Of a stretch of 64,000 nt of DNA, positions 60 through 12,190 are shown one piece after another. Source of the stretch: Desulfomonilia bacterium (GTDB taxonomy: Bacteria > Desulfobacterota > Desulfomonilia > UBA1062); contig JBEKDT010000001.1 in the NCBI GenBank assembly GCA_050014195.1, forward strand, positions 149,341-213,340, in the 5' to 3' direction. The notes below the pieces were generated by a model, which saw only the letters and a program-made list of their open reading frames with translations, did not search any database and was not told the origin of the DNA. The translations under genes were made by a program, and so were the position numbers. Position 1 is the first letter of the stretch. Each line of letters opens with the position of its first letter.

Positions 60-145
60 TGCCTTGCACTCAATATCCGGATATACTGCAATCGTGCATC
101 AAATATTGGATATGCTGCAAAAGTGCAGTATAGTAATTGTTAGGC
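60..145 (+). other. candidate integron attI site (direct repeats plus simple site ending GTTAGGC)
   Basis: Near-identical direct repeats atatccggatatactgcaa (73-91) and atattggatatgctgcaa (103-120), small inverted repeat ctgcaaaagtgcag (115-128), and a GTTRRRY core GTTAGGC at 139-145. No L''/L' boxes of the array attC family are present. The R'' of the first attC (GCCTAAC, ~1287) is the reverse complement of this core. Confidence 0.4.
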
Positions 146-208
146 TAAGAGGTAATATTTCAAAATGAGCTAGATAAAAAGCAACTTCTAATATGAATGG
201 AGTGATAA

Positions 209-1267
209 ATGAAAATTGAATTTATAAATCATAAATCCTGTATATTATTTGTCTTCATCGTAGCATGTCTTCTTTCACCTAGAATATCTCTGTCAGAATC
301 AGATCTTCCAGACGACAATCTAGCCTACCCGGTACTGTTAATAAGCAAGGAGGGAGGGACAGGAAGTGGCTTTTTCTATAATAAGGATGAAGCTATATAT
401 CTAATAACAGCAAGACACGTTCTATTCAATGAAACGTCTATACGTGTACCAGAAGCAGTTATTGTCCCGAAAAATCTAAGGTGTAAGTTATATTGTATAG
501 AGGATAAAGGGAAAAAAGATAAAAAGGAATTCATACTCACTTTCTATGGTGTCATGTTGGAGAGCGAAAAAAACGAACTTATTAAGGCGACTCCAAAGAC
601 TGATAACTTCAACTTCATTCCAGTTATTGAACGACTTTATAAAGAATCCCAAAAACTTAAACTGAGAAGTACTGAACTTACATTATTCTCATATGATAGA
701 AAGGTTAACAAAGGTGGAATAAACGAATTCGAAGTTCAACTGATGGATCTTTATAATAACGGTCAAATTAAATACCACCCAACACATGATGTTGCTTTTA
801 TTAGAATTGGAATCCCTAAAAAAGTAAAAGGCGAAGATATAATGAAATTGCAGAAAGGAGTAATAAAGAAACAAGGGACAGGGGTGGGTGGCTTAAGTAA
901 AGACAACTTCAAACTTTTTAAGGATGTTATCGTGGGCAACCAAGTGTTCGTTTTTGGTTATCCTACATCAATATCAGGAATAAACCCGTGGCTTGATACT
1001 AAATTACCTTTGCTCAGAAAAGGGACTATCGCTGGAAAAAATGAAAATCTTAATGCAATCATATTGGACTGTCCAGCCTTTCAAGGAAATAGTGGTGGAC
1101 TTGTAATAGAAGTTGAACAAGAATCAATTGATAAAATAAAATATAAAGCAATTGGTTTGATTACAAATTTAGTGCCTTATGCAGGTGCATGGATTCAGAA
1201 TTCGGGTTATTCCATCGTTGTCCCTATGGATTTCGTAGAGGAATTATTAAATGCACAATCTAAATAA
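209..1267 (+). CDS. secreted trypsin-like (S1 chymotrypsin-fold) serine protease; cassette 1, attI-proximal
   Basis: 352-aa ORF with an N-terminal hydrophobic signal-like segment. Catalytic motifs TARHV (His) and GNSGG (Ser; a GDSGG variant) are present. RBS GGAGTGA lies upstream of the ATG. The ORF is ~33% GC. Confidence 0.75.
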   Translation: MKIEFINHKSCILFVFIVACLLSPRISLSESDLPDDNLAYPVLLISKEGGTGSGFFYNKDEAIYLITARHVLFNETSIRVPEAVIVPKNLRCKLYCIEDKGKKDKKEFILTFYGVMLESEKNELIKATPKTDNFNFIPVIERLYKESQKLKLRSTELTLFSYDRKVNKGGINEFEVQLMDLYNNGQIKYHPTHDVAFIRIGIPKKVKGEDIMKLQKGVIKKQGTGVGGLSKDNFKLFKDVIVGNQVFVFGYPTSISGINPWLDTKLPLLRKGTIAGKNENLNAIILDCPAFQGNSGGLVIEVEQESIDKIKYKAIGLITNLVPYAGAWIQNSGYSIVVPMDFVEELLNAQSK

Positions 1268-1286
1268 CAATGTTTTGGCTATCATA

Positions 1287-1343
1287 GCCTAACCATCGCA
1301 TCCACCGGACGGCTAAAGCCGCCGGTGATGCACATCGTTCGCC
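1287..1343 (+). repeat. attC 1
   Basis: R'' GCCTAAC, L'' caccggacgg, L' gccggtgatgc, R' GTTCGCC. R'' equals the revcomp of GTTAGGC at 139-145. Confidence 0.8.
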
Positions 1344-1361
1344 AAATAATCTGAGATTAAA

Positions 1362-2423
1362 ATGAGTACGCCAATAATAACAACATCTGATTCAATTAAA
1401 ATTGCAAGAGGTGTATTCGAGAGATCAAAGTACGAGGTTACTGAAGAATGCATTATAGACCTTTCAAAAAATATAACACTAGTAGAAGAAAAAGGTTTAT
1501 CCAAGTTAAACAATAGGCTGATTGCAGGCGGTAGACATATCCAGGATACACTAGTCGAGCATAATTATGCTGCCACAATATTACCTATTCTTGGACCTGA
1601 GGCATCTATCGAATATGAACCCGAGGGTTTACATCGACCTCCAGACTTTAAAATAGTTAGGGAAGGCATTACTTATTGGATTCAAATAAAAAATTTATCA
1701 ATATTGGAAAGAGAGAATCGGCAAGATAAGATTCTCCAAGAAATTGAGAGACAGATAAGAGAAATCGAAGTCGGGATGTTCCTTGGATGCCAACTCAATG
1801 ATGACTTTTCTAGAGATGATATCGAATCACTTTTAACTTTTGTTAGGAGTATTATTAATGAAGCTAATATAGGGCAAGCGTACTTCTTTCCAAATGAGTC
1901 AACACCCAAAGCAAAAATAGAATTCTGGCTTCCAAATAAATTACAATTATCTCATCTCACCTTGGGCATATCCGGTGACATTGATATTGTTGAACAGACA
2001 GGGCTTGCTCAAGAACAAATAAAAAACAGTATCGTTAATGCAGCAGGTGCTTTTAAATGGATTTCTGATGAAAAAACTATCAATCTCATAGCCATGGACT
2101 GTGGCCGATATGATGATATTGATATTTGTGATGCATTATTTGGAACAGAATATGATGAAATATCTCAGAGCGGTAGACATTGTTGGTGTCGAAAAGAAAA
2201 TGGTTTATTTAAAAAATCCCCGTATGATGAAACAGTATTCGGTGTGATTTCACTTAGGAAAAAAGATAAGTGGGCCCCTATTATTAGCACATATACAATG
2301 TCCTTTTTCTTGAATGATACTTATAAAGATTCTCTTGATTGTGTAACGAGCCTTTTCCCTTTCGTGATAATTGTTCAATATAATATGAGACCCCCTATAG
2401 GCCATGCCAATTTCATAATCTAA
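1362..2423 (+). CDS. hypothetical protein (possible PD-(D/E)xK-like core EYEPEG..PDFKI..IQIK); cassette 2
   Basis: 353-aa ORF filling the cassette between attC1 and attC2. It is AT-rich like cassette 1. No recognisable family; the nuclease-like motif is a weak visual match only. Confidence 0.6.
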   Translation: MSTPIITTSDSIKIARGVFERSKYEVTEECIIDLSKNITLVEEKGLSKLNNRLIAGGRHIQDTLVEHNYAATILPILGPEASIEYEPEGLHRPPDFKIVREGITYWIQIKNLSILERENRQDKILQEIERQIREIEVGMFLGCQLNDDFSRDDIESLLTFVRSIINEANIGQAYFFPNESTPKAKIEFWLPNKLQLSHLTLGISGDIDIVEQTGLAQEQIKNSIVNAAGAFKWISDEKTINLIAMDCGRYDDIDICDALFGTEYDEISQSGRHCWCRKENGLFKKSPYDETVFGVISLRKKDKWAPIISTYTMSFFLNDTYKDSLDCVTSLFPFVIIVQYNMRPPIGHANFII

Positions 2424-2454
2424 AAAATGGAATAAGATATTGGGGGAGAATAAA

Positions 2455-2514
2455 GGCGAACAAATCATTTCAGCGGACGCGGCGGGGCCGCGCCGCTGAT
2501 GCCCGCCGTTCGGT
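2455..2514 (+). repeat. attC 2
   Basis: R'' GGCGAAC (revcomp of the upstream R' GTTCGCC), L'' cagcggacg, L' gccgctgatgc, R' GTTCGGT. Confidence 0.85.
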
Positions 2515-2522
2515 GACAAGAT

Positions 2523-3584
2523 ATGATGAAATTGATTGATCTAGGTTTTGATCCCTGGTTTGAAGCACATGTCGATGACATGCGCCGAGAGGATCAAGGA
2601 ATTGCACGTGTGTCAGCAGTTGACCGCAACTCGTACATTATCAGGAATGAGATCAGAGAGATCCCAGCTGAACTTGCAGGGAAGTTCTATTTCCATGTTG
2701 AGTCCTCGATTGAGCTGCCATGTGTCGGCGATTGGGTCACCGTGCAGTATCATAATGATGACACCTCGGCAATCATCCATGGGATTTTTCCACGAAGGAC
2801 GTTTTTACGCCGCAAACGTGCCGGCGTAGAAGTGGACTACCAGATGATTGCAGCCAACATTGACATCGCTTTCATTGTCCAGTCATGTCACTTTGACTTT
2901 AATCTACCTAGACTGAATCGGTATTTAGTAATGGCAGCTGACGGACATGTTGAGCCGATTGTCATTCTTGCCAAGACGGACTTGATCTCCCACGATGAGC
3001 TGCAACAGAAGCTTGCGGCTATTAGACAGGCTGGCATCACGACGAGAGTTATTGCTCTCAGTAACATAACCGGCTCCGGGTTTGACGAATTCCAGCAGGT
3101 ATTAATGTCGGGGCGCACATATTGCCTGCTCGGGTCATCCGGAGTCGGCAAGACTACACTGATCAACCATCTGATTGGACGAGATGATCTTGATACTAAA
3201 GCTGTCAGTGGAACAGGAGAAGGCACACACACAACAGCGCGTCGGCAACTCATTGTTCTTGATAAAGGCATGATGTTCATTGATACACCTGGAATGAGAG
3301 AATTAGGCCTTCTGGGCGCCAGTGAGGGAGTAAACAAAGGGTTTGAAGATATTATTGAGCTTTCCATGACTTGTCGCTATGCCGATTGCAGCCATACTCA
3401 GGAATCAGACTGCGCAGTTCTTACTGCAATTACAAACGGCGAGTTGAGTGAAGAGCGCTATTCTAGTTATTTGAAACTCAGGAAAGAGTCAGAGCACTAT
3501 GAGATGTCGTACTTGGACAAACGTAAAAAGGACAGGGCATTCGGACGCTTCGTTAAGACAGCAAAGAAGAATATGAAAAAATGA
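2523..3584 (+). CDS. RsgA/YjeQ-family circularly permuted ribosome-biogenesis GTPase paralog; cassette 3
   Basis: N-terminal OB-like segment, then G4 (LAKTDL; AKTD in place of NKxD), G1 (GSSGVGKTTLIN) and G3 (DTPG) in permuted order. C-terminal zinc-finger motif CRYADCSHTQESDC. Bounded by attC2 and attC3. Confidence 0.8.
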   Translation: MMKLIDLGFDPWFEAHVDDMRREDQGIARVSAVDRNSYIIRNEIREIPAELAGKFYFHVESSIELPCVGDWVTVQYHNDDTSAIIHGIFPRRTFLRRKRAGVEVDYQMIAANIDIAFIVQSCHFDFNLPRLNRYLVMAADGHVEPIVILAKTDLISHDELQQKLAAIRQAGITTRVIALSNITGSGFDEFQQVLMSGRTYCLLGSSGVGKTTLINHLIGRDDLDTKAVSGTGEGTHTTARRQLIVLDKGMMFIDTPGMRELGLLGASEGVNKGFEDIIELSMTCRYADCSHTQESDCAVLTAITNGELSEERYSSYLKLRKESEHYEMSYLDKRKKDRAFGRFVKTAKKNMKK

Positions 3585-3593
3585 ATGCCGTGC

Positions 3594-3652
3594 ACCGAAC
3601 AATCGGCTCCAGCGGACGCGGTGAAACGCGCCGCTGACCCATGCCGTTCGGC
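3594..3652 (+). repeat. attC 3
   Basis: R'' ACCGAAC (revcomp of GTTCGGT), L'' cagcggacg, L' gccgctgac, R' GTTCGGC. Confidence 0.85.
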
Positions 3653-3668
3653 AGGTGAGGCGCTTATA

Positions 3669-4640
3669 ATGGCACCACGCAAAGAAGACATCCCGGAATG
3701 GCGTCAGTTCGAGCAATTAGTGGCCAGAATCGAGGCTGATGCTGGTCCTCTCGGTTTGATCGTGACTTCTCCTGATCGCATAAAGTGCAGGACCACTGGA
3801 CGCTTACGCGAGGTCGATGCAAGTGTGCGAACACAGATAGGGACATCGAGCATTCTGATCACGATTGAATGCCGGAAACGTCGAGTAAAGCAAGACGTTA
3901 CTTGGATTGAGCAACTTTCGACCAAAAAACATGCGATCGGGGCTGCCCGCACTATTGCCGTTAGTTCCTCCGGGTTTTCTCAGGAAGCTGAAGCAGCGGC
4001 CCTCCAGCACGGCATAGATCTGCGACGATTATCCGATGTATCCGCCGCAGAGATAAACGAACTAATAAGGCTAGATTTCGTTTTATTTACACACAAAAGA
4101 TGCGCCCTGGCTCGTGTTGGCCTCCGACTTTTCCGGTCTTTGGACTGGACGGTGCCCGATCCAGAAAACGTAGACCTTATTTTACCGCCAAGCACGGACC
4201 CGTTTGCCACTATCTTCAGGAATACGGAGACAGGAGCGACTTGGTCGCTCAATGACCTATGGCTGCAATTGCAAGAAGTAACTAATCCGTTTGCCGATGT
4301 CGAGAAGGGCTGCGCTCCAGTTATCAAAACTGCTTGTTTTCCTTTTCCTGGCAATGTCATCGTGAACACTCCAGACGGGCAGAAAAAGATTGGAGATGTG
4401 TTGCTTAGCGTGGCGCTGTCGCTTGAAGTGGAGCAAGTTGATCTGGAATCCGCCAAGAAAGTTGAATATACGTCTCCAGATGGTGCCGCGATCCAACGAG
4501 TGGAGTTTGCCTCTCGTGAACCCGGCGCAGAGGATTGGCATCTTTCGCTACAGATTCCCAAGGATTCAGTGGATATAAGCCAGCTCAGAACAGGAGGGAA
4601 CTGGCCAGTAACAAAGCAAACTGATCAAAAGGGCCACTGA
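3669..4640 (+). CDS. Mrr-like restriction-endonuclease-fold (PD-(D/E)xK) protein with an uncharacterised C-terminal domain; cassette 4
   Basis: N-terminal motif W..FEQLVARI...G......SPD......T......D...R......ILITIECRKR resembles the Mrr_cat nuclease core. RBS GGTGAGG precedes the ATG at 3669. The track ORF start at 3585 lies inside attC3 and is rejected. Confidence 0.6.
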   Translation: MAPRKEDIPEWRQFEQLVARIEADAGPLGLIVTSPDRIKCRTTGRLREVDASVRTQIGTSSILITIECRKRRVKQDVTWIEQLSTKKHAIGAARTIAVSSSGFSQEAEAAALQHGIDLRRLSDVSAAEINELIRLDFVLFTHKRCALARVGLRLFRSLDWTVPDPENVDLILPPSTDPFATIFRNTETGATWSLNDLWLQLQEVTNPFADVEKGCAPVIKTACFPFPGNVIVNTPDGQKKIGDVLLSVALSLEVEQVDLESAKKVEYTSPDGAAIQRVEFASREPGAEDWHLSLQIPKDSVDISQLRTGGNWPVTKQTDQKGH

Positions 4641-4684
4641 GTCGGTGGGTTCAATCTGCCAACTGCGCGTGCTGATAGCGATAA

Positions 4685-4743
4685 GCCGAACCAGTAAATT
4701 CAGCGGACGCAAAAAGCCGCGCCGCTGATGCCCACCGTTCGGT
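4685..4743 (+). repeat. attC 4
   Basis: R'' GCCGAAC (revcomp of GTTCGGC), L'' cagcggacg, L' gccgctgatgc, R' GTTCGGT. Confidence 0.85.
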
Positions 4744-4764
4744 GTCTAAGGAGGAGGCGTAATA

Positions 4765-5013
4765 ATGAATGGGAATAAAGGTGACCACCCATTAACAGAT
4801 ATCCTTATCCATAATATTGAAGTCTATGGCAAAGAAGCAGATGATCTGATTCGTAAGATTAGTTCCTTATCAAGCAGGAGAGAACTAGATGAGTGGTGGG
4901 AAAAGGAAATTAACTGGTCATCAGATAAAACACTAGCCTTACAGAAATCTCAATTGAGATACGAAGAACTTCTTGATCGAGCAAGAAAAAGTGGATGGGA
5001 AATTGATGAGTAA
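4765..5013 (+). CDS. hypothetical 82-aa protein; cassette 5
   Basis: Strong RBS AAGGAGGAGG. The ORF fills the cassette between attC4 and attC5. Confidence 0.6.
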   Translation: MNGNKGDHPLTDILIHNIEVYGKEADDLIRKISSLSSRRELDEWWEKEINWSSDKTLALQKSQLRYEELLDRARKSGWEIDE

Positions 5014-5015
5014 TC

Positions 5016-5109
5016 ACCGAACAAGCAAATCCAGCGGACCACTGGGGCCGTTTGTCCTTGCTGATTCAACGCTCACCTGCCCCAGTGGCCGCTGATCCGC
5101 ACGTTAGCC
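5016..5109 (+). repeat. attC 5 (long variant, ~94 bp)
   Basis: R'' ACCGAAC, extended stem ccagcggaccactgggg / ccccagtggccgctgat, R' GTTAGCC. Confidence 0.8.
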
Positions 5110-5116
5110 AGGAGAA

Positions 5117-5998
5117 GTGATGAATTATTTCTCATACAATACTGATGGTGGGCAACGTAGGTTCGATGTCCTAATCAAAAAAGGACTAGCTGCAACTAGT
5201 GGAGATGAGAAGTTTGGTAAACAACTTGGCAAGCTTAATATAGATGACATTCTTCTCATGTATGAGGATGGATTAGGAATTGTTGCCATCGGAGAAGTTC
5301 AAGAAGAATGGGACGGGAAACCTTATAGTAAACCCATATACTATATTCCCGGTAAAGAGTTTCCCGAAGGTGCAAATGAATATAGAATAAAGGTCAAATG
5401 GTTTCTAAATATCTCTGATTCTCCATTGAGCGTTAAGGAACTAAAAGAGCGTATTGGTTACATTCCACGTGGTGCAGTAACACCATTCATTAAATGGAGG
5501 TATGAGATTGAAAAAATTATTGCTGAACTTAGAGCTCGCAACCCAGAAACTGTTCAAGATGCTATTGATGATCTTGAATCTCATAAAAGAGAGTTTAAGT
5601 TACTCGATAAAACTGAGCAAGAGTCAATTATCAAAAGCCGAATTGGCCAAGGGATATTTCGAGAAGAGCTTATCAAAATCTGGGGTAGCTGTTCTGTAAC
5701 CGGGCTAACCAATCTTTCTCTGTTGCGGGCTTCTCATATAAAACCATGGCGGGAGTGCTCTAATCAGGAACGCTTAGATCCGATGAACGGACTTTTACTG
5801 CATCCTACTTTGGATCATTTGTTTGATTCTGGATTTGTCACATTTGATGCTGATGGGAAAATCCTTATATCAAGGAAGTTATCGGAAAAAGATGTTGAGA
5901 TCCTGCATATTGACCAAAATAGTTATTTGAGGATAATGCCACGAAGGTTAAAGAACTACATGCAGTATCATCGAAAGAATGTTTTTAAACCTGGCTAA
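5117..5998 (+). CDS. HNH (HNH_2-type) endonuclease fused to an N-terminal EVE/PUA-like putative modified-base-binding domain; cassette 6
   Basis: C-terminal motif LLRASHIKPW...NGLLLHPTLDHLFDSGFVTF is typical of the HNH_2 nuclease family. The N-terminal ~140 aa (DDILLMYEDGLGIVAIGEV ... YRIKVKW) has an EVE-like pattern. RBS GGAGAAG. Confidence 0.65.
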   Translation: MMNYFSYNTDGGQRRFDVLIKKGLAATSGDEKFGKQLGKLNIDDILLMYEDGLGIVAIGEVQEEWDGKPYSKPIYYIPGKEFPEGANEYRIKVKWFLNISDSPLSVKELKERIGYIPRGAVTPFIKWRYEIEKIIAELRARNPETVQDAIDDLESHKREFKLLDKTEQESIIKSRIGQGIFREELIKIWGSCSVTGLTNLSLLRASHIKPWRECSNQERLDPMNGLLLHPTLDHLFDSGFVTFDADGKILISRKLSEKDVEILHIDQNSYLRIMPRRLKNYMQYHRKNVFKPG

Positions 5999-6049
5999 CC
6001 AGCCACTTCAGCCGACGGGCTACGCCCGCGGCTGACCGGCACGTTGGGC
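5993..6049 (+). repeat. attC 6
   Basis: R'' GGCTAAC (revcomp of GTTAGCC), L'' cagccgacgg, L' gcggctgac, R' GTTGGGC. Confidence 0.8.
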
Positions 6050-6101
6050 ATAGAATCTGCGGGGACCACCGTTTCCTCGCTTTTTCAAAGGAGAATTCAA
6101 T

Positions 6102-6416
6102 ATGCGTTGGAATCATTACGTCTCTTACTTTTTTGGCGGAGCCTTTCTCACAAATGCGATCCCGCATTTTGTGAGCGGCGTTACAGGGCACCCTTTCCAA
6201 AGCCCTTTTGCCTCTCCCCCGGGGCAAGGGCTCTCTTCCGCCGTGGTGAATGTGCTTTGGGGCTCGCTCAACCTTGTTATCGGCTACTTGCTCGTATGCC
6301 GCATTGGACAATTTGAGTTGCGTCGGACAAGGCATGTTCTCATTGCGGGATTGGGGGGCCTACTCATGGCCGTGATGCTTGCGCATGTATTTGGTCGCTT
6401 CTATGGGGGGCTCTGA
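6102..6416 (+). CDS. small integral membrane protein (104 aa); cassette 7
   Basis: Three hydrophobic segments. RBS AAAGGAGAA. Confidence 0.6.
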   Translation: MRWNHYVSYFFGGAFLTNAIPHFVSGVTGHPFQSPFASPPGQGLSSAVVNVLWGSLNLVIGYLLVCRIGQFELRRTRHVLIAGLGGLLMAVMLAHVFGRFYGGL

Positions 6417-6433
6417 AATATGGGAAACGATTT

Positions 6434-6496
6434 GCCCAACAATTCATTCCAGCGGACGGGCCACACGGTGGCCCGCCGCTGAATTTGTCGTTGGGC
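6434..6496 (+). repeat. attC 7
   Basis: R'' GCCCAAC (revcomp of GTTGGGC), L'' cagcggacgg, L' gccgctgaa, R' GTTGGGC. Confidence 0.85.
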
Positions 6497-6532
6497 ATAA
6501 TACGTAATTTATGATTCTTAGGGAGAACTATC

Positions 6533-7333
6533 ATGAAAGTTCTAGCGCTCAATGGAAGTCTTCGGGGTGACAGGGGAGCTACAGGTAAGATTCTTCAGAG
6601 TATGGGTGCGGGCGTCGAGAGGGCAGGTGGAATTTGGAATGTGGTTCATCTTTCGGAACTAAAGATTGAAACTTGCCGCGCATGCAATCACTGTCAGAGA
6701 ACAAAAACTTATAAATGTATCTTTGACGGTAAAGACGACGCCGAAGAGATCTTCAACAAGATGAGGGGTACGGATATTCTGATTTATGCATCTCCCGTTT
6801 ATGTGTTTGGTGTGTCAAGTCTTCTCAAACGTTTTCTTGAGAGAATTCATTCTCGCGCTCCTGTTGCGGAGATTCTATTAACGAAATCCGGATTATTCTT
6901 TCATGCCACAGATCAATCACTTTCAGGCAAACCTTTCATTTCCATAGTAGTGTGCGACAATATTGAAAATCTCACAGTTCGCAATACGAAAGAGTACTTC
7001 CGAATTTTTGGACGCTTCATGGACGCGCCACATGTGGCACATATGGAACGTCGGAGTGCGGCGGCATGGATGGCCGCACTGGAAGGAACCGGCAAACAGG
7101 CGAAAAATAATGCAGAGAACGTTCTGGCTGCCTATGTACGCGTGGGAGAGGAATTGGTGTTAAAAGGAAGCATCTCGAGAAAATCGAAGAAAATTACAGA
7201 GCGGCCTTTCATAAAAATTCCACTTCCGGTGCGTATGGGACGGCACATTCCAGCATTCAAACCTTTTATTGAAAAGGAAGTTCGCAGACGGTCGAGTAAA
7301 ATAAGCAGCATGATTGGAGTAAAAGGAGAGTAA
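6533..7333 (+). CDS. iron-sulfur flavoprotein (Isf-like, NADPH-dependent FMN reductase fold); cassette 8
   Basis: MKVLALNGSLRGD N-terminus of the flavodoxin-like reductase family, plus the compact Cys motif CRACNHCx7C. RBS AGGGAGAA. Confidence 0.65.
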   Translation: MKVLALNGSLRGDRGATGKILQSMGAGVERAGGIWNVVHLSELKIETCRACNHCQRTKTYKCIFDGKDDAEEIFNKMRGTDILIYASPVYVFGVSSLLKRFLERIHSRAPVAEILLTKSGLFFHATDQSLSGKPFISIVVCDNIENLTVRNTKEYFRIFGRFMDAPHVAHMERRSAAAWMAALEGTGKQAKNNAENVLAAYVRVGEELVLKGSISRKSKKITERPFIKIPLPVRMGRHIPAFKPFIEKEVRRRSSKISSMIGVKGE

Positions 7334-7358
7334 ATGTGGACGGTTCTACCAGTGGCTG

Positions 7359-7421
7359 GCCGAACCAGTCAATCTAGCTGACCCGGCGCAAGCGCCGGGC
7401 AGTTGATCTCCGCCGTTATGC
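7359..7421 (+). repeat. attC 8
   Basis: R'' GCCGAAC (one mismatch to revcomp of GTTGGGC), L'' tagctgacccggcgc, L' gcgccgggcagttgatc, R' GTTATGC. Confidence 0.75.
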
Positions 7422-7446
7422 ACCTCCAGTTTCAATATTTCGAGCA

Positions 7447-7475
7447 TTGTTAATAATGACAGTTAAGGCTATATT
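7447..7475 (+). promoter_or_regulatory. cassette-internal sigma70-like promoter for brnTA
   Basis: TTGTTA, 17-bp spacer, TATATT, located ~20 bp upstream of the BrnT start. Confidence 0.45.
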
Positions 7476-7494
7476 AAATGTGAAATGAGGAAGC

Positions 7495-7776
7495 ATGCTT
7501 ATTTTTGAGTGGGACCCAGAGAAAGCAAAAAGTAACTTAAAGAATCACAGGGTGTCCTTCGATGAAGCGAGTACTGTTTTCAGCGATACTATGTCTTTGA
7601 CAATTCATGATCCTCTCCATTCAGATGAAGAAGATAGATTTGTCATTATCGGGAATTCATACAAGAACCGTCTTGTACTGGTTGTTCATGTCGAGAGGGG
7701 CAACAGAATAAGGATTATCAACGCAAGGAAAGCGACAAGGAAGGAAAAGAAACAATATGAAGAGAATGAAAACTGA
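7495..7776 (+). CDS. brnT: BrnT-family (DUF497) type II toxin ribonuclease; cassette 9
   Basis: MLIFEWDPEKAKSNLKNHRVSFDEASTVF...RIINARKATRKEKK matches the BrnT signature. It overlaps the downstream antitoxin ORF. Confidence 0.8.
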   Translation: MLIFEWDPEKAKSNLKNHRVSFDEASTVFSDTMSLTIHDPLHSDEEDRFVIIGNSYKNRLVLVVHVERGNRIRIINARKATRKEKKQYEENEN

Positions 7777-7966
7777 TCCAGAGATGTTGGAAGAATATGA
7801 TTTCAGCAAAGGTATCAGGGGAAAATATGCACAAAAGTATTCAGAAGGAACAAACGTTGTTGTAATTGAACCTGATGTTTCAAAGTTTTTCCCTGATCAT
7901 GATTCTGTAAATCAAGCTCTCAGGTCTTTAGCTGACATCATCAAAGGGCAGAAAAAAACTGCATAA
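7757..7966 (+). CDS. brnA: BrnA-family antitoxin; cassette 9
   Basis: EYDFSKGIRGKYA motif of BrnA antitoxins. A 20-nt overlap with brnT gives the toxin-first operon typical of BrnTA. Confidence 0.7.
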   Translation: MKRMKTDPEMLEEYDFSKGIRGKYAQKYSEGTNVVVIEPDVSKFFPDHDSVNQALRSLADIIKGQKKTA

Positions 7967-8092
7967 CAAGCCAATGCACCGGACCGCAAACAGCTCGGGG
8001 GCATGCTTCCGGCCCTGCTCCGCCTTCAGTCCAGTGGTGCATTCTGGTTTGGTGCTCCGCTCCGTTTGCGGCAGGTGATCCGCACGTTGGGC
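7961..8092 (+). repeat. attC 9 (long variant, ~130 bp)
   Basis: R'' GCATAAC (revcomp of GTTATGC), L''-like ccggaccgcaaacag, L'-like ccgtttgcggcaggtgatccgc, R' GTTGGGC. Confidence 0.7.
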
Positions 8093-8110
8093 TCAACAGA
8101 GGATAATAAC

Positions 8111-8524
8111 ATGCTGAATAGATCTCTTATCATTGTGATATGTTTTTCATTGATTTCTTGTTCAAACCTTAGAGAAAATGAAAAGATCAATCAAAATAAT
8201 TATAAAAAAACTGATTCAGACGTGAAGCTTTTAGAGTTGTCAAAAGAGGCGTTAACAACATTTCTTAAAAGCCGTCTCACAGCATCTGGATGGACAATAA
8301 CAGTTAATCCTGACAAAAATATAGTTGAGACTAACTGGTATAGAGAACACAAAGGAGAGGTTGTTGTAAAATCTGAAATCAGGATTCATGAGGGACTTAT
8401 CCGTGTAGATGTATGGCAACGTGTTGGATTACTATTTACTTCTGATATTAAGAACGAAAGAACTAGATATTTTGAGTGGGCTATACAAAAACAAATAGAG
8501 AAAACACGTTCACAGTCTCAATAA
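8111..8524 (+). CDS. lipoprotein (138 aa); cassette 10
   Basis: Signal peptide with lipobox LISC. RBS GAGGA. The track start at 8003 lies inside attC9 and is rejected. Confidence 0.6.
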   Translation: MLNRSLIIVICFSLISCSNLRENEKINQNNYKKTDSDVKLLELSKEALTTFLKSRLTASGWTITVNPDKNIVETNWYREHKGEVVVKSEIRIHEGLIRVDVWQRVGLLFTSDIKNERTRYFEWAIQKQIEKTRSQSQ

Positions 8525-8526
8525 AA

Positions 8527-8583
8527 GCCCAACCATGGCATCCCCCGGACGGCTTACAGCCTCCGCTGATCCGCCCGTTATGC
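8527..8583 (+). repeat. attC 10
   Basis: R'' GCCCAAC (revcomp of GTTGGGC), L'' cccggacgg, L' ccgctgatccgc, R' GTTATGC. Confidence 0.85.
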
Positions 8584-8629
8584 AACGAAAGAAAAAGGCA
8601 TGTATCAGTAAATGAGGGTGGGGGTCATC

Positions 8630-9151
8630 ATGCAAAAAGAAGAAGATCACTCTGGAGAATTGGGCAAAAAATTTGCCGCTGTATGTGGCCTTTACTGTGA
8701 GGCGTGCTCATGGTTCATTGCCACCACTGAAGATCCTGAAAGGCTCAAAAGGCTTGCGGCACAATTGCATTTTTCGGAGGAAGAGAGCAAGTGCTATGGA
8801 TGCCGGTCGGACAAGAGGTTGCCTTATTGCGAGAAATGCAAGATGTTCGCTTGCGCAGCTGAACGAGGTATCGACTTTTGCAGCGAATGTGAAGAGTATC
8901 CCTGCGACGACCTAAAACAGTTTCAATCTGCAATGCCTCATCGGATCGAGCTTTGGGCCAATCTGGAACGAATCAAGTCTATTGGTTATAAACATTGGCT
9001 CAAGGAAATTCGGGAAAACTATGCCTGCCCACGGTGCCACATCATCAATTCCACCTACGACTTGAAATGTAGAAAGTGCGGCGAAGAGCCTAGCTGCAAT
9101 TACGTAGCCAAACACCAGCAGGTAATCGAGGAGTATTTGAAGAGTAGATGA
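8630..9151 (+). CDS. cysteine-rich DUF3795-like protein; cassette 11
   Basis: CGLYCEACSWF...CYGC...CEKCKMFACAAERGIDFCSECEEYPC pattern. The start may be 8612 or 8630. Confidence 0.6.
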   Translation: MQKEEDHSGELGKKFAAVCGLYCEACSWFIATTEDPERLKRLAAQLHFSEEESKCYGCRSDKRLPYCEKCKMFACAAERGIDFCSECEEYPCDDLKQFQSAMPHRIELWANLERIKSIGYKHWLKEIRENYACPRCHIINSTYDLKCRKCGEEPSCNYVAKHQQVIEEYLKSR

Positions 9152-9158
9152 TGGGGTC

Positions 9159-9256
9159 GCCGGGGTCTCAACATATGACAAATTTGTTGATTGTTGAGAC
9201 CCTGACCCCGGTGCTTCGCCCGACGTTTTGCCTGCCTGTGATTTGCGACGTTATGT
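9159..9256 (+). repeat. atypical recombination-site-like element (nested palindrome plus degenerate attC ending GTTATGT)
   Basis: Perfect nested palindrome ggggtctcaaca..acaaatttgt..tgttgagacccc (~9161-9213). It is followed by cgcccgacg / cctgtgatttgcgac (weak L''/L') and GTTATGT at 9250-9256. The expected R'' GCATAAC is absent. Confidence 0.4.
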
Positions 9257-9272
9257 GAAGGAGAATAAAAGA

Positions 9273-9692
9273 ATGAGAGATGCGAGCAAAACAATTGGCA
9301 ATCTGATCGAAAGAGCAAGCGTTTCTATTATCAGTTCCGTTGATGAAGACGGTTTTCCTAATTCAAAGGCAATGCTTCCACCGAGGAAAAGGGAAGGCAT
9401 AAAGCATATCTTCTTCACGACCAATACATCCTCAATGAGAGTAAGGCAATATCTCAATAACCCGAAAGCGTGCGTATATTTCTTTGATAATAGATTCTTC
9501 AAGGGCATTATGCTGAGGGGCACCATGGAAGTCCTGCATGATAGCGCATCTAAGGAAATGATCTGGAAGCATGGCGACGAAATGTATTATCCAAAGGGTG
9601 TAACTGATCCCGATTACTGCGTGCTCAGGTTCACTGCTCAAAGTGGAAGGTATTACAGCAATTTTAAATCTGAGAATTTTGAAGTTGAGTAG
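9273..9692 (+). CDS. pyridoxamine 5'-phosphate oxidase-like FMN-binding protein; cassette 12
   Basis: Split-barrel PNPOx-family pattern (SVDEDGFPNSKAM...ACVYFFD...MLRGTMEVL). RBS GAAGGAGAA. Confidence 0.6.
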   Translation: MRDASKTIGNLIERASVSIISSVDEDGFPNSKAMLPPRKREGIKHIFFTTNTSSMRVRQYLNNPKACVYFFDNRFFKGIMLRGTMEVLHDSASKEMIWKHGDEMYYPKGVTDPDYCVLRFTAQSGRYYSNFKSENFEVE

Positions 9693-9706
9693 AGACCCAA
9701 GCTATC

Positions 9707-9770
9707 ACATAACCAGCGCATCCAGGCAGACGCGTCGTGTCCGCCGCGCCGCTGATTCGCAATGTTCGGT
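9707..9770 (+). repeat. attC 12
   Basis: R'' ACATAAC (revcomp of GTTATGT at 9250; one mismatch to the revcomp of GTTATGC at 8577), L' gccgctgattcgc, R' GTTCGGT. Confidence 0.75.
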
Positions 9771-9904
9771 ACACTTGATTGGATCGTCATCGTGACAAGA
9801 GGGTGTTCTTTTGTTGCTGCATATCTGAGCGCTCATAGTTGTTTTCCGTTCGCTGCTTTTCAGGCGTACGGTCAGCCAATATAGAGAATGCTGGAGGATG
9901 AACC

Positions 9905-10198
9905 ATGAACGACAATTTCGAAAAGAGGCTTTGGGCCGCAGCGCTGGCAGGATGGTGGACCTTGCTGGTGGCCGCAGGGGTTCTGATGCTTCAGTGGATC
10001 GTCTACCTGCTGGTTATGTCCGGACGACCCATGTGGTTTCTTTCCCTCTGGGGGCCTGATGTCAGCTGGCATGACGTTCATAACATCTGGTTTCTGGGCT
10101 TAGGGTTCTTCAAGGTCTGCTTGCTACTTTTGGCGGTTGTGGTTCTCTGGCTTACCTTGTGGGCCAGGCGATTACGAAAAGGGGCTGGCAGTTCATGA
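9905..10198 (+). CDS. small membrane protein (97 aa); cassette 13
   Basis: Trp-rich hydrophobic helices. RBS GGAGGATGA. Preceded by a 135-nt untranslated leader. Confidence 0.55.
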   Translation: MNDNFEKRLWAAALAGWWTLLVAAGVLMLQWIVYLLVMSGRPMWFLSLWGPDVSWHDVHNIWFLGLGFFKVCLLLLAVVVLWLTLWARRLRKGAGSS

Positions 10199-10294
10199 AG
10201 TCTTGAATTCGCTCTCGCTCGCTTTTCCACAAACAGTCAGGTCGTCGCTGCGATCGCAATTAGAGAGCAAAGGACGGAGTTATCTCGTAAGTGC

Positions 10295-10314
10295 GCCCAA
10301 CTAGGGCGTTGGGT
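10295..10314 (+). repeat. minimal R''/R' inverted pair (possible attC remnant)
   Basis: GCCCAAC-tagggc-GTTGGGT with no L boxes. It sits between two ORFs that may belong to a single cassette. Confidence 0.3.
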
Positions 10315-10334
10315 CAAAGGAAGGAGATACAAGA

Positions 10335-10757
10335 ATGTTCAGAAGAATAGTGTGTTTTGCAGTCATTGGACTTGTCCTTGGTACTGCTGCTCTCATGGCT
10401 GACGAATCCGATAGGGGGAAGGCTGCAGTTGCTTCAGCTGAAGAATGGCTTGGAATTGTTGATGAAGGTAACTATATTGAGAGCTGGAAGGAATCGTCTG
10501 AATATTTTCAGCAAGCCATCAAACAGGATCAGTGGGAACAAGCAGTTCAGGCGGTACGGAAGCCCCTCGGCAAATTGGTTTCAAGGAAAGTGATGAGTGC
10601 CTCATACAGAACGTCTCTCCCGGGAGCACCCGATGGGCAGTATGTGGTAATCAAATTTAACACCTGGTTCGAGAATAAAAAATCAGCTATTGAGACAGTT
10701 ACTCCAAAGATGGACAAAGATGGGATGTGGAGAGTTTCCGGTTACTACATCAAATGA
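10335..10757 (+). CDS. secreted DUF4019-like protein; cassette 13/14
   Basis: Signal peptide, then EEWLGIVDEGNY..SW..S...FQ pattern. Strong RBS AAGGAAGGAGA. Confidence 0.55.
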   Translation: MFRRIVCFAVIGLVLGTAALMADESDRGKAAVASAEEWLGIVDEGNYIESWKESSEYFQQAIKQDQWEQAVQAVRKPLGKLVSRKVMSASYRTSLPGAPDGQYVVIKFNTWFENKKSAIETVTPKMDKDGMWRVSGYYIK

Positions 10758-10823
10758 AGACCAGACAATGGCATCCTCGCGGATGCGGGCTGCGCCAGCG
10801 CCGCTGATGCCTGGCTGTTCGAC
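10757..10823 (+). repeat. attC 14
   Basis: Degenerate R'' ACCAGAC (two mismatches to the revcomp of GTTCGGT at 9764), L'' catcctcgcggatgcggg, L' gcgccagcgccgctgatgc, R' GTTCGAC. Confidence 0.7.
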
Positions 10824-10831
10824 GGAGAGAA

Positions 10832-11500
10832 ATGAAGAAGAAAACATTGCTGAGTTGGAGTAGCGGGAAGGACAGCGCATGGGCGCTTCACCTGCTCCAA
10901 CAAGATCCGCAGATTGAGCTTCTCGGCATGTTTACTGTAATGAATCAAAAATACAGTCGTGTGTCGATGCACGCCACCCGGTTGGAGATGCTTCAGCGTC
11001 AAGCCGAGGCAGTAGGTCTGCCGATCCAAACGATCAGTCTTCCCGACCCGTGCACAAACGAGCAATACGACGCTATCATGCGACACTTCGTCACCGAGTC
11101 TGTCAACAAGGGGATTGAGTGCATGGCATTCGGAGATCTGTTCCTTGAGGACGTCCGAAAGTATCGGGAGAATCAACTGAAAGGGAGTGGGATCGATCCT
11201 CTTTTCCCGTTGTGGGGAATCCCCACGAGCGACCTGGCTGAGCAAATGTTGTCAGCAGGACTCGAAGCCTATGTCAGCAGTGTTGATCTCAAGAAATTGC
11301 CTTCGCGTTTTGCCGGACAAAAATGGTCAAGGGACTTGATTGTGGAATTTCCCAAGGATTGCGACCCATGTGGAGAGAACGGGGAAATCCACACGGTCGC
11401 CGTGGGCGGCCCGATGTTTCGGAAAACAGTCCTTGTCAAAGTCGGCGACGTGGTGAATCGAAAAGGATTTGCTTACGCTGACATCATTCCGATTAACTGA
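10832..11500 (+). CDS. PP-loop ATP pyrophosphatase of the MJ0570/Dph6-like family (ATP_bind_4); cassette 15
   Basis: N-terminal LLSWSSGKDS PP-loop. Length and architecture match diphthine-ammonia-ligase-like enzymes. Confidence 0.65.
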   Translation: MKKKTLLSWSSGKDSAWALHLLQQDPQIELLGMFTVMNQKYSRVSMHATRLEMLQRQAEAVGLPIQTISLPDPCTNEQYDAIMRHFVTESVNKGIECMAFGDLFLEDVRKYRENQLKGSGIDPLFPLWGIPTSDLAEQMLSAGLEAYVSSVDLKKLPSRFAGQKWSRDLIVEFPKDCDPCGENGEIHTVAVGGPMFRKTVLVKVGDVVNRKGFAYADIIPIN

Positions 11501-11507
11501 AACGACT

Positions 11508-11565
11508 GTCGAACCAAGGAGTGCAGGCGATGCGATACCCGCGAGCCTGACTCCTGCCGTTGGAG
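11508..11565 (+). repeat. attC 15
   Basis: R'' GTCGAAC (revcomp of GTTCGAC), L''-like gcaggcgatgcg, L' gcgagcctgactcc, R' GTTGGAG. Confidence 0.75.
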
Positions 11566-11572
11566 GTTTGCA

Positions 11573-12121
11573 ATGACCCAAGCATTGTTACTCATAGACA
11601 TTCAGAACGATTACTTCCCTGGCGGGGCAATGGAACTAGTGGGAAGTTCTCCTGCTGCGGCGCAGGCCGGGAAACTACTTCAGGCGTTCAGACAAAAAGC
11701 GCTGAGCGTTATCCACATCCAACACATCTCGACAAGACCAGGAGCGACCTTCTTTTTGCCGAATACCGCTGGGGTACAAATTCACGAGAGCGTAGCTCCC
11801 AACAGTGGCGAAACGGTCTTTCAGAAACACTACCCGAACAGCTTTCGTGAAACACGTCTGCTTGAGCACCTTCGTGAGAATCAAATCTCGCAGCTTGTGA
11901 TCGCAGGGATGATGACCCATATGTGCATTGACACTACCTCACGTGCTGCCACCGACCTTGGCTTCCCGTGCGTTCTGGCTCATGACGCATGCGCTACAAG
12001 AGCTCTGTCGTTTAATGGCGCTACTGTTTCTGCTCAGAGCGTACAAACAGCATTCCTCGCAGCCCTTAATGGCCTGTTTGCCGAAGTGCTGTCAGTGGAG
12101 GAAATATGCACCAACCTCTAA
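11573..12121 (+). CDS. isochorismatase-family cysteine hydrolase; cassette 16
   Basis: ALLLIDIQNDYF N-terminus, and a catalytic Cys in MMTHMCIDTT. Confidence 0.75.
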   Translation: MTQALLLIDIQNDYFPGGAMELVGSSPAAAQAGKLLQAFRQKALSVIHIQHISTRPGATFFLPNTAGVQIHESVAPNSGETVFQKHYPNSFRETRLLEHLRENQISQLVIAGMMTHMCIDTTSRAATDLGFPCVLAHDACATRALSFNGATVSAQSVQTAFLAALNGLFAEVLSVEEICTNL

Positions 12122-12178
12122 CGAGCTGATCCGGCAGACCGGGGCTAAGCCCCGCGCCGCTGATACCTGCCGTGAGAG
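12116..12178 (+). repeat. attC 16 (mutated R' box GTGAGAG)
   Basis: R'' CTCTAAC, L'' cagaccgggg, L' ccccgcgccgctgatacc. The R' reads cGTGAGAG, whereas GTTAGAG is expected from the next cassette's R'' CTCTAAC. Confidence 0.7.
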
Positions 12179-12190
12179 GGCAAGGACCCT

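What the first reader, a model, noticed from the sequence alone, without database searches (positions are those of the whole stretch)
5117..5998. Putative EVE/PUA-like-HNH fusion nuclease cassette (type IV restriction-like)
The C-terminus carries a clear HNH_2-type motif, LLRASHIKPW...NGLLLHPTLDHLFDSGFVTF. The N-terminal ~140 aa have the hydrophobic-core pattern of EVE/PUA-like modified-base readers (DDILLMYEDGLGIVAIGEV...YRIKVKW). Reader-HNH fusions are known architectures for modification-dependent restriction. This one sits as a mobile cassette and may represent an undescribed specificity.
Basis: partly seen in the sequence, partly recalled or inferred. Interest (0 to 1): 0.6.

Follow-up and report, generated by a model that had tools for sequence, protein, structure and literature searches.

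The report
EVE-like/HNH restriction nuclease on integron cassette
This gene encodes a two-part enzyme, a domain shaped like known readers of chemically modified DNA bases joined to a DNA-cutting HNH domain, carried on a small mobile gene cassette; it is most likely an anti-phage enzyme that cuts modified DNA, of a design that is already known.

Summary
ORF 5117..5998 (+) is real, and its likely start is the ATG at 5120 (292 aa).

- **Nuclease half:** residues 150-291 match the linker and HNH domain of the solved EVE-HNH enzyme VcaM4I (E 4.7e-33). All four VcaM4I catalytic residues are kept (H207, N224, D233, D237).
- **Reader half:** residues 1-146 miss the Pfam EVE threshold (19.8 vs 23 bits) and match no solved structure by sequence. 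A confident AlphaFold model (pLDDT 92) has EVE-domain structures, including VcaM4I, as its nine best PDB matches. YTH and ASCH domains follow.
- **Modularity:** the N-domain family has about 196 clusters and no Pfam family of its own. It is fused to HNH, HNH_2, NOV_C, NucS_C and GmrSD_N nucleases.
- **Cassette:** the gene fills one integron cassette (5104-6043) in an array of 21 attC sites. Orthologues in two other metagenome contigs keep the same cassette ends but have unrelated attC bodies, and one also has a different upstream gene.

The best reading is a solitary modification-dependent (type IV) restriction endonuclease of the known EVE-HNH kind. The target base is unknown. It is a new member of a known kind, of modest interest.

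The parts
5014..5111 (+). Upstream attC site, which belongs to the preceding 82-aa cassette. Its R' box GTTAGCC lies at 5103-5109. The crossover between G5103 and T5104 marks the 5' end of the nuclease cassette.
   Evidence: The attC covariance model R1 scores it 38.6 bits (E 1e-8), and it was not in the training set. Sequence.
5104..6043 (+). The integron gene cassette (940 bp, 40% G+C), holding one ORF. It begins TTAGCC and ends with the G of the next GTTGGGC.
   Evidence: TTAGCC at the 5' end is the complement of the cassette's own R'' box GGCTAAC. The same ends occur in the orthologous cassettes L004 and L008. G+C is 0.40 against 0.50 for the non-array part of the window.
5110..5114 (+). 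Ribosome-binding site AGGAG, 5 nt upstream of the ATG at 5120. No promoter-like site lies between the attC and the start codon.
   Evidence: Sequence. The promoter scan finds nothing between 5014 and 5120.
5120..5998 (+). Coding sequence of the EVE-like/HNH nuclease (292 aa plus TAA). The mechanical ORF starts at the GTG at 5117.
   Evidence: It is identical to P0001.
5117..5554 (+). N-terminal EVE-like (PUA-superfamily) domain, residues 1-146, the putative modified-base reader. Family signature residues are N8-T9-D10, D44, Y49, G54, G59, W65, E88-Y89-R90 and W95.
   Evidence: AF2 pLDDT 91.7. Foldseek top matches are EVE structures. Pfam EVE gives E 8.4e-4, below threshold. Conservation.
5561..5683 (+). 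Helical inter-domain linker (residues 149-189). From residue 150 it aligns to VcaM4I from residue 167, the end of that enzyme's linker helix (residues 148-178), running on into the start of the VcaM4I HNH domain (from residue 179).
   Evidence: Model helices at 149-162 and 165-189. Alignment to 6yex. Linker role from PMC7897488.
5684..5995 (+). C-terminal HNH_2 (PF13391) nuclease domain. H207 is at nt 5735-5737, N224 at 5786-5788, D233 at 5813-5815 and D237 at 5825-5827.
   Evidence: Pfam HNH_2 E 1.4e-11. PDB 6yex E 4.7e-33. Conservation.
5991..6051 (+). The cassette's own attC site. The R'' box GGCTAAC at 5993-5999 contains the TAA stop codon. The R' box GTTGGGC is at 6043-6049.
   Evidence: R1 scores it 51.1 bits (E 2.3e-12). 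It folds as an imperfect hairpin.

Best explanation
The gene most likely encodes a solitary modification-dependent (type IV) restriction endonuclease of the EVE-HNH architecture, carried as a promoterless single-gene integron cassette.

**Shown here**
- The protein has two domains: a divergent EVE-like N-terminal domain, then a helical linker and an HNH_2 nuclease domain.
- The linker and nuclease are homologous to those of VcaM4I, and the catalytic residues are intact.
- The gene occupies one attC-bounded cassette in an array of 21 attC sites. The same cassette occurs in other arrays.

**Inferred by analogy with VcaM4I, TspA15I and CmeDI**
- The protein dimerises through its HNH domains.
- Each EVE-like domain flips a modified base into an aromatic pocket. 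Y89 is the candidate equivalent of VcaM4I W82.
- The HNH dimer then cuts the invading modified DNA nearby.
- The host is spared because its own DNA lacks the mark and no methyltransferase is linked.

Expression would depend on read-through from upstream cassettes or on reshuffling of the cassette. The base that is sensed is not known.
For: **Nuclease**
- Pfam HNH_2 gives E 1.4e-11.
- Residues 150-291 match VcaM4I (PDB 6yex) at E 4.7e-33, and the first 102 aligned residues (150-251) carry no gap.
- H207, N224, D233 and D237 correspond to the experimentally validated H224, N241, D250 and D254. They are 98-100% conserved.

**Reader**
- The full-length model has pLDDT 92.1, and its top PDB hit is VcaM4I (E 2.4e-20 over 321 columns).
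- The N-domain model has pLDDT 91.7. Its top nine hits are EVE structures, and TMq to VcaM4I is 0.65.
- Pfam EVE is hit below threshold by 34 of 70 family members. No other PUA-superfamily family is hit.

**Modularity typical of type IV enzymes**
- Of 93 N-domain family members, 37 carry HNH, 22 HNH_2, 5 NOV_C, 2 NucS_C and 1 GmrSD_N.
- The HNH_2 module is 59-74% identical to proteins with unrelated N-domains, such as DUF3427-like and DUF7225.

**Context**
- No methyltransferase lies in the cassette. It holds a single ORF between two attC sites.
- P0020, a relative that shares the N-domain but carries a different HNH type, sits beside type I R-M hsdM and hsdS genes.
- 35 of 70 family members hit the PADLOC defence candidate PDC-S11.
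- Type II and IV restriction genes are reported as prevalent in integron cassettes (bioRxiv 10.1101/2024.07.02.601686).
Against: - No biochemical or phage data exist for this protein or for any member of its N-domain family.
- The N-domain has no significant sequence match to any solved EVE domain. phmmer and a 70-sequence profile both fail.
- The Pfam EVE score is below the gathering threshold.
- TM-scores to EVE structures are moderate (0.5-0.65). YTH and ASCH domains score only slightly lower, so the sub-family and the ligand are uncertain.
Y89 = W82 is a topological inference only.
- EVE domains also occur in RNA-related contexts (PMC7641849 was listed but not read in detail).
- The cassette lies sixth in the array and has no promoter of its own, so it may be silent.
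- No integron integrase flanks the array.
Confidence: 0.72

Rival explanations
1. It is a modification-independent nuclease. It could be a cassette-borne toxin or abortive-infection effector, or a selfish homing-type HNH endonuclease. In this reading the N-domain only provides general nucleic-acid binding or regulation.
For: - HNH domains are common in homing endonucleases and toxins.
- The array also carries toxin-antitoxin cassettes: BrnT, and RHH with PemK.
- The isolated VcaM4I HNH domain is a non-specific toxic nuclease.
Against: - There is no antitoxin or immunity partner in the cassette, which holds a single ORF.
- The closest structural and sequence relative is a validated modification-dependent enzyme.
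- The N-domain family is conserved at polar and aromatic positions (N8, T9, D10, Y49, W65, E88, Y89, W95). This fits a ligand pocket better than a generic binder.
- The same domain is swapped among five nuclease types.
Confidence: 0.13
2. It is an RNA-directed enzyme. The EVE-like domain reads a modified RNA base, as YTH domains and some EVE proteins do, and the nuclease acts on RNA or on RNA-DNA hybrids. Such an enzyme might attack tRNA or phage transcripts.
For: - YTH (m6A-RNA) domains are the next-best structural matches after EVE.
- EVE domains have been linked to modified RNA contexts (PMC7641849, title and abstract only).
- Many family members are stand-alone proteins of about 140 aa.
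Against: - The nuclease module is 45-50% identical to the DNA-cutting module of VcaM4I.
- The fusion partners NOV_C, NucS_C and GmrSD_N are DNA nucleases.
- A relative sits next to a type I R-M system.
Confidence: 0.08
3. It is a conventional type II or phosphorothioate-dependent HNH restriction enzyme whose partner (a methyltransferase or the dnd genes) lies elsewhere in the genome.
For: - PADLOC 'REase_II' HNH models hit it at E 2.6e-15 and 6e-14.
- NCBIfam PT-DNA_restrict hits it at E 2e-5.
Against: - All these hits cover only the C-terminal HNH part (residues about 173-291).
- The NCBIfam score is 23.9 bits against a cut-off of 180.
- The N-domain has an EVE-like fold, not a sulfur-binding domain or a sequence-recognition domain.
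- No DNA methyltransferase lies in or next to the cassette.
Confidence: 0.05

Closest known systems
TspA15I / VcaM4I / CmeDI group of EVE-HNH modification-dependent restriction endonucleases (Lutz et al. 2019, PMC6765204; Pastor et al. 2021, PMC7897488; PDB 6yex, 6yjb, 6ykf, 6ymg)
   Same: - The domain order and size match: an N-terminal EVE-fold domain of about 146 aa, a helical linker and a C-terminal PF13391 HNH domain (293 vs 309 aa).
- Linker and HNH are alignable at E 4.7e-33, with all four catalytic residues kept.
- The whole-protein model has VcaM4I as its best PDB match.
- It is a solitary gene with no linked methyltransferase, as reported for this group.
   Different: - The N-domain shows no significant sequence similarity to the VcaM4I EVE domain. 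It falls below the Pfam EVE threshold.
- It belongs to a separate family of about 196 clusters with its own signature (NTD ... GD.LLMY ... G.VA.G ... W ... EYRI.V.W).
- Its target modification is unknown.
- It is carried on an integron cassette.
Other PUA-superfamily reader-nuclease fusions: TagI (SRA-HNH), ScoA3IV, ScoA3V (6mA-stimulated), YenY4I, and YTH- or EVE-McrB
   Same: The logic is the same: a base-flipping PUA-superfamily reader fused to, or paired with, a nuclease. The same reader is recombined with different nucleases.
   Different: SRA domains do not appear among the top 50 structural matches. EVE ranks above YTH, which ranks above ASCH. No sequence link to these groups was found.
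DUF3427-like/HNH_2 proteins of about 282 aa, the most numerous homologues of the C-terminal half
   Same: The linker and HNH_2 module is 59-74% identical.
   Different: The N-terminal domain is unrelated in sequence, and a few of these proteins hit Pfam DUF3427. Only 10 of the 122 proteins from the first two searches carry both the N-domain studied here and the HNH_2 module.
Anti-phage defence cassettes of sedentary chromosomal integrons (Darracq et al., bioRxiv 10.1101/2024.07.02.601686)
   Same: It is a compact single-gene defence candidate inside an attC-bounded, promoterless cassette in a long chromosomal array that also carries toxin-antitoxin cassettes. That study notes that small type II and IV restriction systems are prevalent in cassettes.
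   Different: The array lies in a Desulfomonilia MAG with no integrase next to it, which resembles a CALIN (an attC cluster without an integrase). This particular protein family is not described there, as far as the text searched shows.

Membership tests
EVE-HNH modification-dependent restriction endonucleases (TspA15I/VcaM4I group) | C-terminal HNH (PF13391-type) domain with an intact beta-beta-alpha-Me active site (VcaM4I H224, N241, D250, D254) | tested here: met
   HNH_2 scores E 1.4e-11. H207, N224, D233 and D237 align to the VcaM4I residues at a constant offset of 17 within the ungapped stretch 150-251. They are 98-100% conserved in 118 homologues.
EVE-HNH modification-dependent restriction endonucleases (TspA15I/VcaM4I group) | Helical inter-domain linker homologous to the auto-inhibitory linker of VcaM4I (residues 148-178) | tested here: inconclusive
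   The model predicts helices at 149-162 and 165-189. The sequence alignment begins at VcaM4I residue 167, so only the last third of the linker is covered. Auto-inhibition itself is not testable here.
EVE-HNH modification-dependent restriction endonucleases (TspA15I/VcaM4I group) | N-terminal domain with the EVE fold | tested here: met
   The AF2 N-domain model has pLDDT 91.7 and pTM 0.86. The nine best Foldseek PDB matches are EVE structures, with E 9e-7 to 1e-4 and TMq 0.43-0.65.
EVE-HNH modification-dependent restriction endonucleases (TspA15I/VcaM4I group) | N-terminal domain is a sequence member of Pfam EVE (PF01878) or clusters with the TspA15I-group EVE domains | tested here: not met
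   Pfam EVE scores 18-19.8 bits against a gathering score of 23. There is no phmmer or profile match to the VcaM4I EVE domain or to any solved EVE protein. Only a weak local match to VcaM4I residues 33-61 was found (8.7 bits).
EVE-HNH modification-dependent restriction endonucleases (TspA15I/VcaM4I group) | Conserved pocket for a flipped modified base (VcaM4I W82, Y130, T11, E15) | tested here: inconclusive
   Conserved aromatic and polar residues exist in the family (N8, T9, D10, Y49, W65, Y89, W95). No 3D superposition could be made. Y89 = W82 rests on topology and on a partial VcaM4I sequence only.
EVE-HNH modification-dependent restriction endonucleases (TspA15I/VcaM4I group) | Cleavage or phage restriction stimulated by 5mC, 5hmC or another modification | not testable with these tools
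   This needs in vitro digestion and phage spot assays.
EVE-HNH modification-dependent restriction endonucleases (TspA15I/VcaM4I group) | No cognate DNA methyltransferase gene adjacent | tested here: met
   The cassette holds a single ORF. The neighbouring cassettes carry no DNA methylase family. The only methyltransferase hits are the general SAM-dependent families Methyltransf_11, _12 and _25.
Integron gene cassette | A 3' attC site with R''-L''...L'-R' imperfect palindrome architecture | tested here: met
   R1 scores 5991-6051 at 51.1 bits. It folds as a hairpin with a bulged stem. The window holds 21 sites on the + strand and none after 16216.
Integron gene cassette | The 5' end of the cassette (after G|TT) is complementary to its own R'' box, the signature of circular-cassette integration | tested here: met
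   TTAGCC at 5104-5109 pairs with GGCTAA at 5993-5998. The next cassette shows the same relation (GTTGGGC and GCCCAAC).
Integron gene cassette | The same cassette is found in different arrays or next to different neighbours | tested here: met
   L004 (78% aa identity) and L008 (84%) share the TTAGCC ... GGCTAAC ends. Their ORFs are 83-87% identical to this one in nucleotides, but their attC bodies are only 47-56% identical. L004 has a different upstream gene.
Integron gene cassette | Integron integrase (intI) and attI next to the array | tested here: not met
   Upstream, on L001, lie genes for a rubrerythrin-like protein, an M48 peptidase, a GAF protein, GAPDH and CPSase. Downstream lie an aminotransferase and a GTPase gene. 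Not every ORF of the window was scanned.
Phosphorothioate-dependent restriction endonucleases (NCBIfam NF045808) | Full-length match including the sulfur-binding domain | tested here: not met
   The score is 23.9 bits against a cut-off of 180, and only the HNH part (residues 179-291) is matched.

The most novel reading that the evidence does not exclude
The N-terminal domain may define an unannotated EVE-like clade: about 196 clusters at 50% identity, with no Pfam family even in the newer precomputed annotation. The clade is shuffled among at least five nuclease types and also occurs alone. It might read a base modification other than the 5mC and 5hmC sensed by VcaM4I-type EVE domains, for example a phage hypermodified pyrimidine, 6mA or a deazapurine. 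That would give a new specificity class of type IV enzymes, spread by integron cassettes.
Probability: 0.25. Interest if true: 0.55.

Novelty: new member of a known kind. Interest (0 to 1): 0.3.

Why it matters
If the function is confirmed, this adds a sequence-divergent branch to the EVE-HNH type IV restriction enzymes. Current Pfam and NCBI annotation misses the reader domain, and the protein is labelled only 'HNH endonuclease'.

It is also a clean example of a modification-dependent nuclease travelling as an integron cassette in an anaerobic deltaproteobacterial-type lineage. This fits the recent view of chromosomal integrons as stores of compact phage-defence genes.

A new reader specificity would be useful as an epigenetic or phage-DNA analysis reagent. 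None of this changes current concepts.

Tried and rejected
- **Sequence route to a solved EVE structure.** phmmer of the protein and hmmsearch with a 70-sequence N-domain profile found no EVE hit, only chance antibody and WD40 matches.
- **Recovering the VcaM4I N-terminal sequence.** P0105 and P0097 were used as queries to obtain it for residue mapping. Only residues 31-83 were recovered, from an insignificant local match. A family HMM aligns VcaM4I residues 33-61 weakly.
- **Genome scans.** The search for related loci with the N-domain alignment failed because the alignment was too diverse. The single-protein scan of species-representative genomes found one relative, in a Syntrophorhabdaceae MAG.
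- **Plasmids and phages.** tblastn of the N-domain against both collections found no match. PHROGs hits cover the HNH part only.
- **First attC search.** A crude R''/R' plus folding-energy script missed most sites. It was replaced by a covariance model.
- **Phosphorothioate-dependent or type II restriction enzyme.** Rejected, because those hits cover only the HNH module.
- **Integrase search.** A Pfam scan of 10 larger ORFs of the window, looking for an integrase, found none.

Full report
**1. The observation**

The window has an ORF at 5117..5998 on the + strand (293 aa from a GTG). LLRASHIKPW is at residues 202-211, NGLLLHPTLDHLFDSGFVTF at 224-243, DDILLMYEDGLGIVAIGEV at 43-61 and YRIKVKW at 89-95.

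The likely start is the ATG at 5120. An AGGAG at 5110-5114 lies 5 nt upstream of it, against only 2 nt from the GTG. The database protein P0001 and its orthologues P0002-P0004 all begin MNYF. P0001 is 100% identical, 292 aa, and named 'MAG: HNH endonuclease [Desulfomonilia bacterium]'.

The protein is on record on many contigs, and 782 homologues have E <= 1e-3. The ORF is a real gene. Residue numbers below count from the GTG.

**2. The C-terminal half**

Pfam HNH_2 (PF13391) matches residues 192-244 at E 1.4e-11. Against all PDB sequences the only significant hit is VcaM4I, the structurally characterised EVE-HNH modification-dependent restriction endonuclease (6yex, 6yjb, 6ykf, 6ymg). The E-value is 4.7e-33. 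Residues 150-251 align without a gap to VcaM4I 167-268.

In VcaM4I the validated active-site residues are H224 (general base), N241 (structural), D250 (metal ligand replacing the second His) and D254 (PMC7897488). At the constant offset of 17 these are H207, N224, D233 and D237 here. In 118 homologues of this module they are 100, 100, 98 and 100% conserved.

NCBIfam and PADLOC hits cover only this module. They include MAG4270_fam, PT-DNA_restrict at 23.9 bits against a cut-off of 180, and the PADLOC 'HNH' and 'REase_II' models.

**3. The N-terminal half**

By sequence this half is poorly anchored:
- Pfam EVE scores 18 bits for the full protein and 19.8 bits for the domain alone. The gathering score is 23.
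- Neither phmmer nor a 70-sequence profile reaches any solved EVE protein.

An exhaustive HMMER scan of 1.84 billion representative proteins shows that the domain defines its own family. There are 196 clusters at E <= 1e-3 and 89 at E <= 1e-10. Stand-alone members of about 140 aa carry no Pfam annotation, even in the newer precomputed set.

Of 70 domain sequences, 34 hit Pfam EVE at E <= 0.1 (best 6.7e-5). None hits YTH, ASCH, SRA or PUA.

Structure prediction settles the fold:
- The full-length model has mean pLDDT 92.1. Its best PDB match is VcaM4I across both domains (E 2.4e-20, 321 columns).
- The N-domain model has pLDDT 91.7 and pTM 0.86. Its nine best matches are EVE structures: 2ar1, 2p5d, 2hd9, 1wmm, 2eve, 2g2x, VcaM4I chains A and B, and 1zce.
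- These matches have E 9e-7 to 1e-4 and TMq 0.43-0.65. The highest TMq (0.65, rmsd 3.5 A) is to VcaM4I. YTH and ASCH domains follow, and no SRA domain is in the top 50.

**4.

The nearly invariant positions are N8 (97%), T9 (84%), D10 (79%), A25, G29, D44 (96%), Y49 (90%), G54, G59 (100%), V61, W65 (90%), E88 (96%), Y89 (91%), R90, V93, W95 (100%) and P103. The window protein keeps all of them.

A fragment of the VcaM4I EVE sequence (residues 31-83) was recovered. The family HMM aligns its residues 33-61 to the GD.LLMY..G.G.VA.G core, but weakly (8.7 bits).

By topology, VcaM4I W82 stacks on the flipped base and sits at the start of strand beta-5. It would correspond to Y89 here. This is an inference, not a superposition, because model coordinates could not be handled with the tools available.

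**5. Modularity**

Among 93 multi-domain members of the N-domain family, the Pfam partners are HNH PF01844 (37), HNH_2 (22), NOV_C (5), NucS_C (2), GmrSD_N (1) and FRG (2).

The converse also holds. The linker and HNH_2 module of this protein is 59-74% identical to proteins of about 282 aa whose N-termini are unrelated. Some of those hit DUF3427, and one carries DUF7225. Only 10 of the 122 proteins from the first two searches carry both the N-domain studied here and the HNH_2 module.

This combinatorial pairing of a reader with different nucleases is what Lutz et al. used to find modification-dependent enzymes (PMC6765204). Two further points support a defence role:
- P0020, a relative that shares the N-domain but carries a different HNH type, lies next to type I R-M hsdM and hsdS genes.
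- 35 of 70 family members hit the PADLOC defence candidate PDC-S11, best E 1.5e-6. For the window protein itself the hit is weak (E 1.8e-3).

**6. The cassette**

Nearly every gap between the co-oriented genes from 1268 to 16230 holds an imperfect palindrome. It has an ...AAC box, a CAGCGGAC-like arm, a variable loop, a GCCGCTGA-like arm and a GTT... box.

A covariance model built from 14 of these finds 21 sites on the + strand between 1285 and 16216. Six of them were not used in training, and none lies beyond 16216. The gene lies between the site at 5014-5111 (38.6 bits, untrained) and the site at 5991-6051 (51.1 bits).

The upstream R' box is GTTAGCC (5103-5109). The cassette's own R'' box is GGCTAAC (5993-5999), its exact complement, and it contains the TAA stop codon. 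The next cassette shows the same relation, with GTTGGGC at 6043 and GCCCAAC at 6434. This is the signature of integration of a circular cassette at G|TT. The cassette is therefore 5104-6043 (940 bp).

Its G+C content is 40% (ORF 38%), against 50% for the part of the window outside the array. No promoter-like site lies between the attC and the start codon.

Orthologues in two unrelated metagenome contigs, L004 (78% aa identity) and L008 (84%), have the same TTAGCC ... GGCTAAC ends. Their ORFs are 83-87% identical to this one in nucleotides, but their attC bodies are unrelated (47-56%). L004 also has a different upstream gene. The cassette has therefore moved between arrays.

No integrase gene flanks the array. 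Upstream lie genes for a rubrerythrin-like protein, an M48 peptidase, a GAF protein, GAPDH and CPSase (L001). Downstream lie an aminotransferase and a GTPase gene. The array looks like a cluster of attC sites without an integrase, although not every ORF of the window was scanned.

**7. Mechanism**

Shown here:
- the two-domain architecture;
- an intact HNH active site;
- the EVE-like fold;
- a solitary gene with no linked DNA methyltransferase;
- location on a cassette.

Inferred from VcaM4I, TspA15I and CmeDI:
- dimerisation through the HNH domains;
- double-strand cleavage near the modified site;
- restriction of phages whose DNA carries the mark, while unmodified host DNA is spared.

I put the probability of this reading at about 0.72. 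The rivals are a modification-independent toxin or homing nuclease (0.13), an RNA-directed reader-nuclease (0.08), and a type II or phosphorothioate-dependent enzyme with a distant partner (0.05).

**8. Comparison, novelty and verdict**

The architecture is that of the known EVE-HNH type IV enzymes. The nuclease half is a clear homologue of VcaM4I. It is below the Pfam EVE threshold and has no detectable similarity to the TspA15I-group EVE domains.

The protein is therefore best described as a new, divergent member of a known kind, not a new kind. Restriction genes in integron cassettes are also already reported.

The N-domain family is absent from the plasmid and phage collections. The scan of species-representative genomes found one relative. 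The family is otherwise known here mainly from metagenome assemblies.

The hint of a new specificity cannot be tested in silico. Interest: 0.3.

Noticed in passing
window 140-16216 (+ strand): The window holds a long chromosomal array of 21 attC sites, about 20 cassettes with G+C from 35 to 54%. Housekeeping genes flank it on both sides and no integron integrase is adjacent, so it resembles a CALIN (an attC cluster without an integrase). The host appears to be a Desulfomonilia MAG.
   Followed up: partly
window 3592-3654 and 3669-4640: An attC site (53 bits) lies inside the mechanical ORF 3585..4640, so the real gene probably starts near 3669 (323 aa, as called in JGI contigs). Its product has a weak Mrr_cat hit. 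It is a second restriction-endonuclease-like cassette, two cassettes upstream of the finding.
   Followed up: partly
window 2523-3584: One cassette encodes a 353-aa RsgA/MMR_HSR1-type GTPase. This is an unusual, housekeeping-like cargo for an integron cassette.
   Followed up: no
window 7495-7966 and 15114-15679: Two cassettes carry toxin-antitoxin genes. One has a BrnT toxin with an overlapping 69-aa ORF, and the other has an RHH protein with a PemK toxin. Such cassettes are typical stabilisers of chromosomal cassette arrays and possible internal promoters for downstream cassettes.
   Followed up: no
window 146-2516: The first two cassettes have very low G+C (35-37%). They encode a secreted trypsin-like protease (209-1267) and a 353-aa protein with no Pfam hit (1362-2423).
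   Followed up: no
window 9152-9227 and 10290-10315: Two palindromic elements between ORFs are not matched by the attC model. One is a 76-nt hairpin (GGGGTCTCAAC...GTTGAGACCC). The other is a short palindrome, GCGCCCAAC-TAGG-GCGTTGGGT. They may be divergent or degenerate attC sites.
   Followed up: no
proteins P0006-P0120, P0075, P0005: The linker and HNH_2 module (residues 150-293) is 59-74% identical to many proteins whose N-terminal domains are unrelated: DUF3427-like, DUF7225 or unannotated. This suggests recent shuffling of one nuclease module among several putative readers.
   Followed up: partly
N-domain family (alignment A2): Half of the family members (35 of 70) match the PADLOC phage-defence candidate PDC-S11, at positions about 211-270 of a 358-position profile. 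That uncharacterised candidate may therefore contain the same EVE-like domain.
   Followed up: partly
L007 8001-8822: P0277, a family member with the N-domain and HNH_2, is inserted as a lone gene between a biotin-lipoyl carrier gene (accB-like) and a biotin carboxylase gene (accC-like). No attC site was detected there.
   Followed up: no
L005 572-9417: P0020, a relative with the same N-domain and a classical PF01844 HNH, lies in an apparent defence island. Its neighbours include DUF5655, Nmad3, an HTH/Peptidase_M78 regulator, and type I R-M hsdS and hsdM genes.
   Followed up: no
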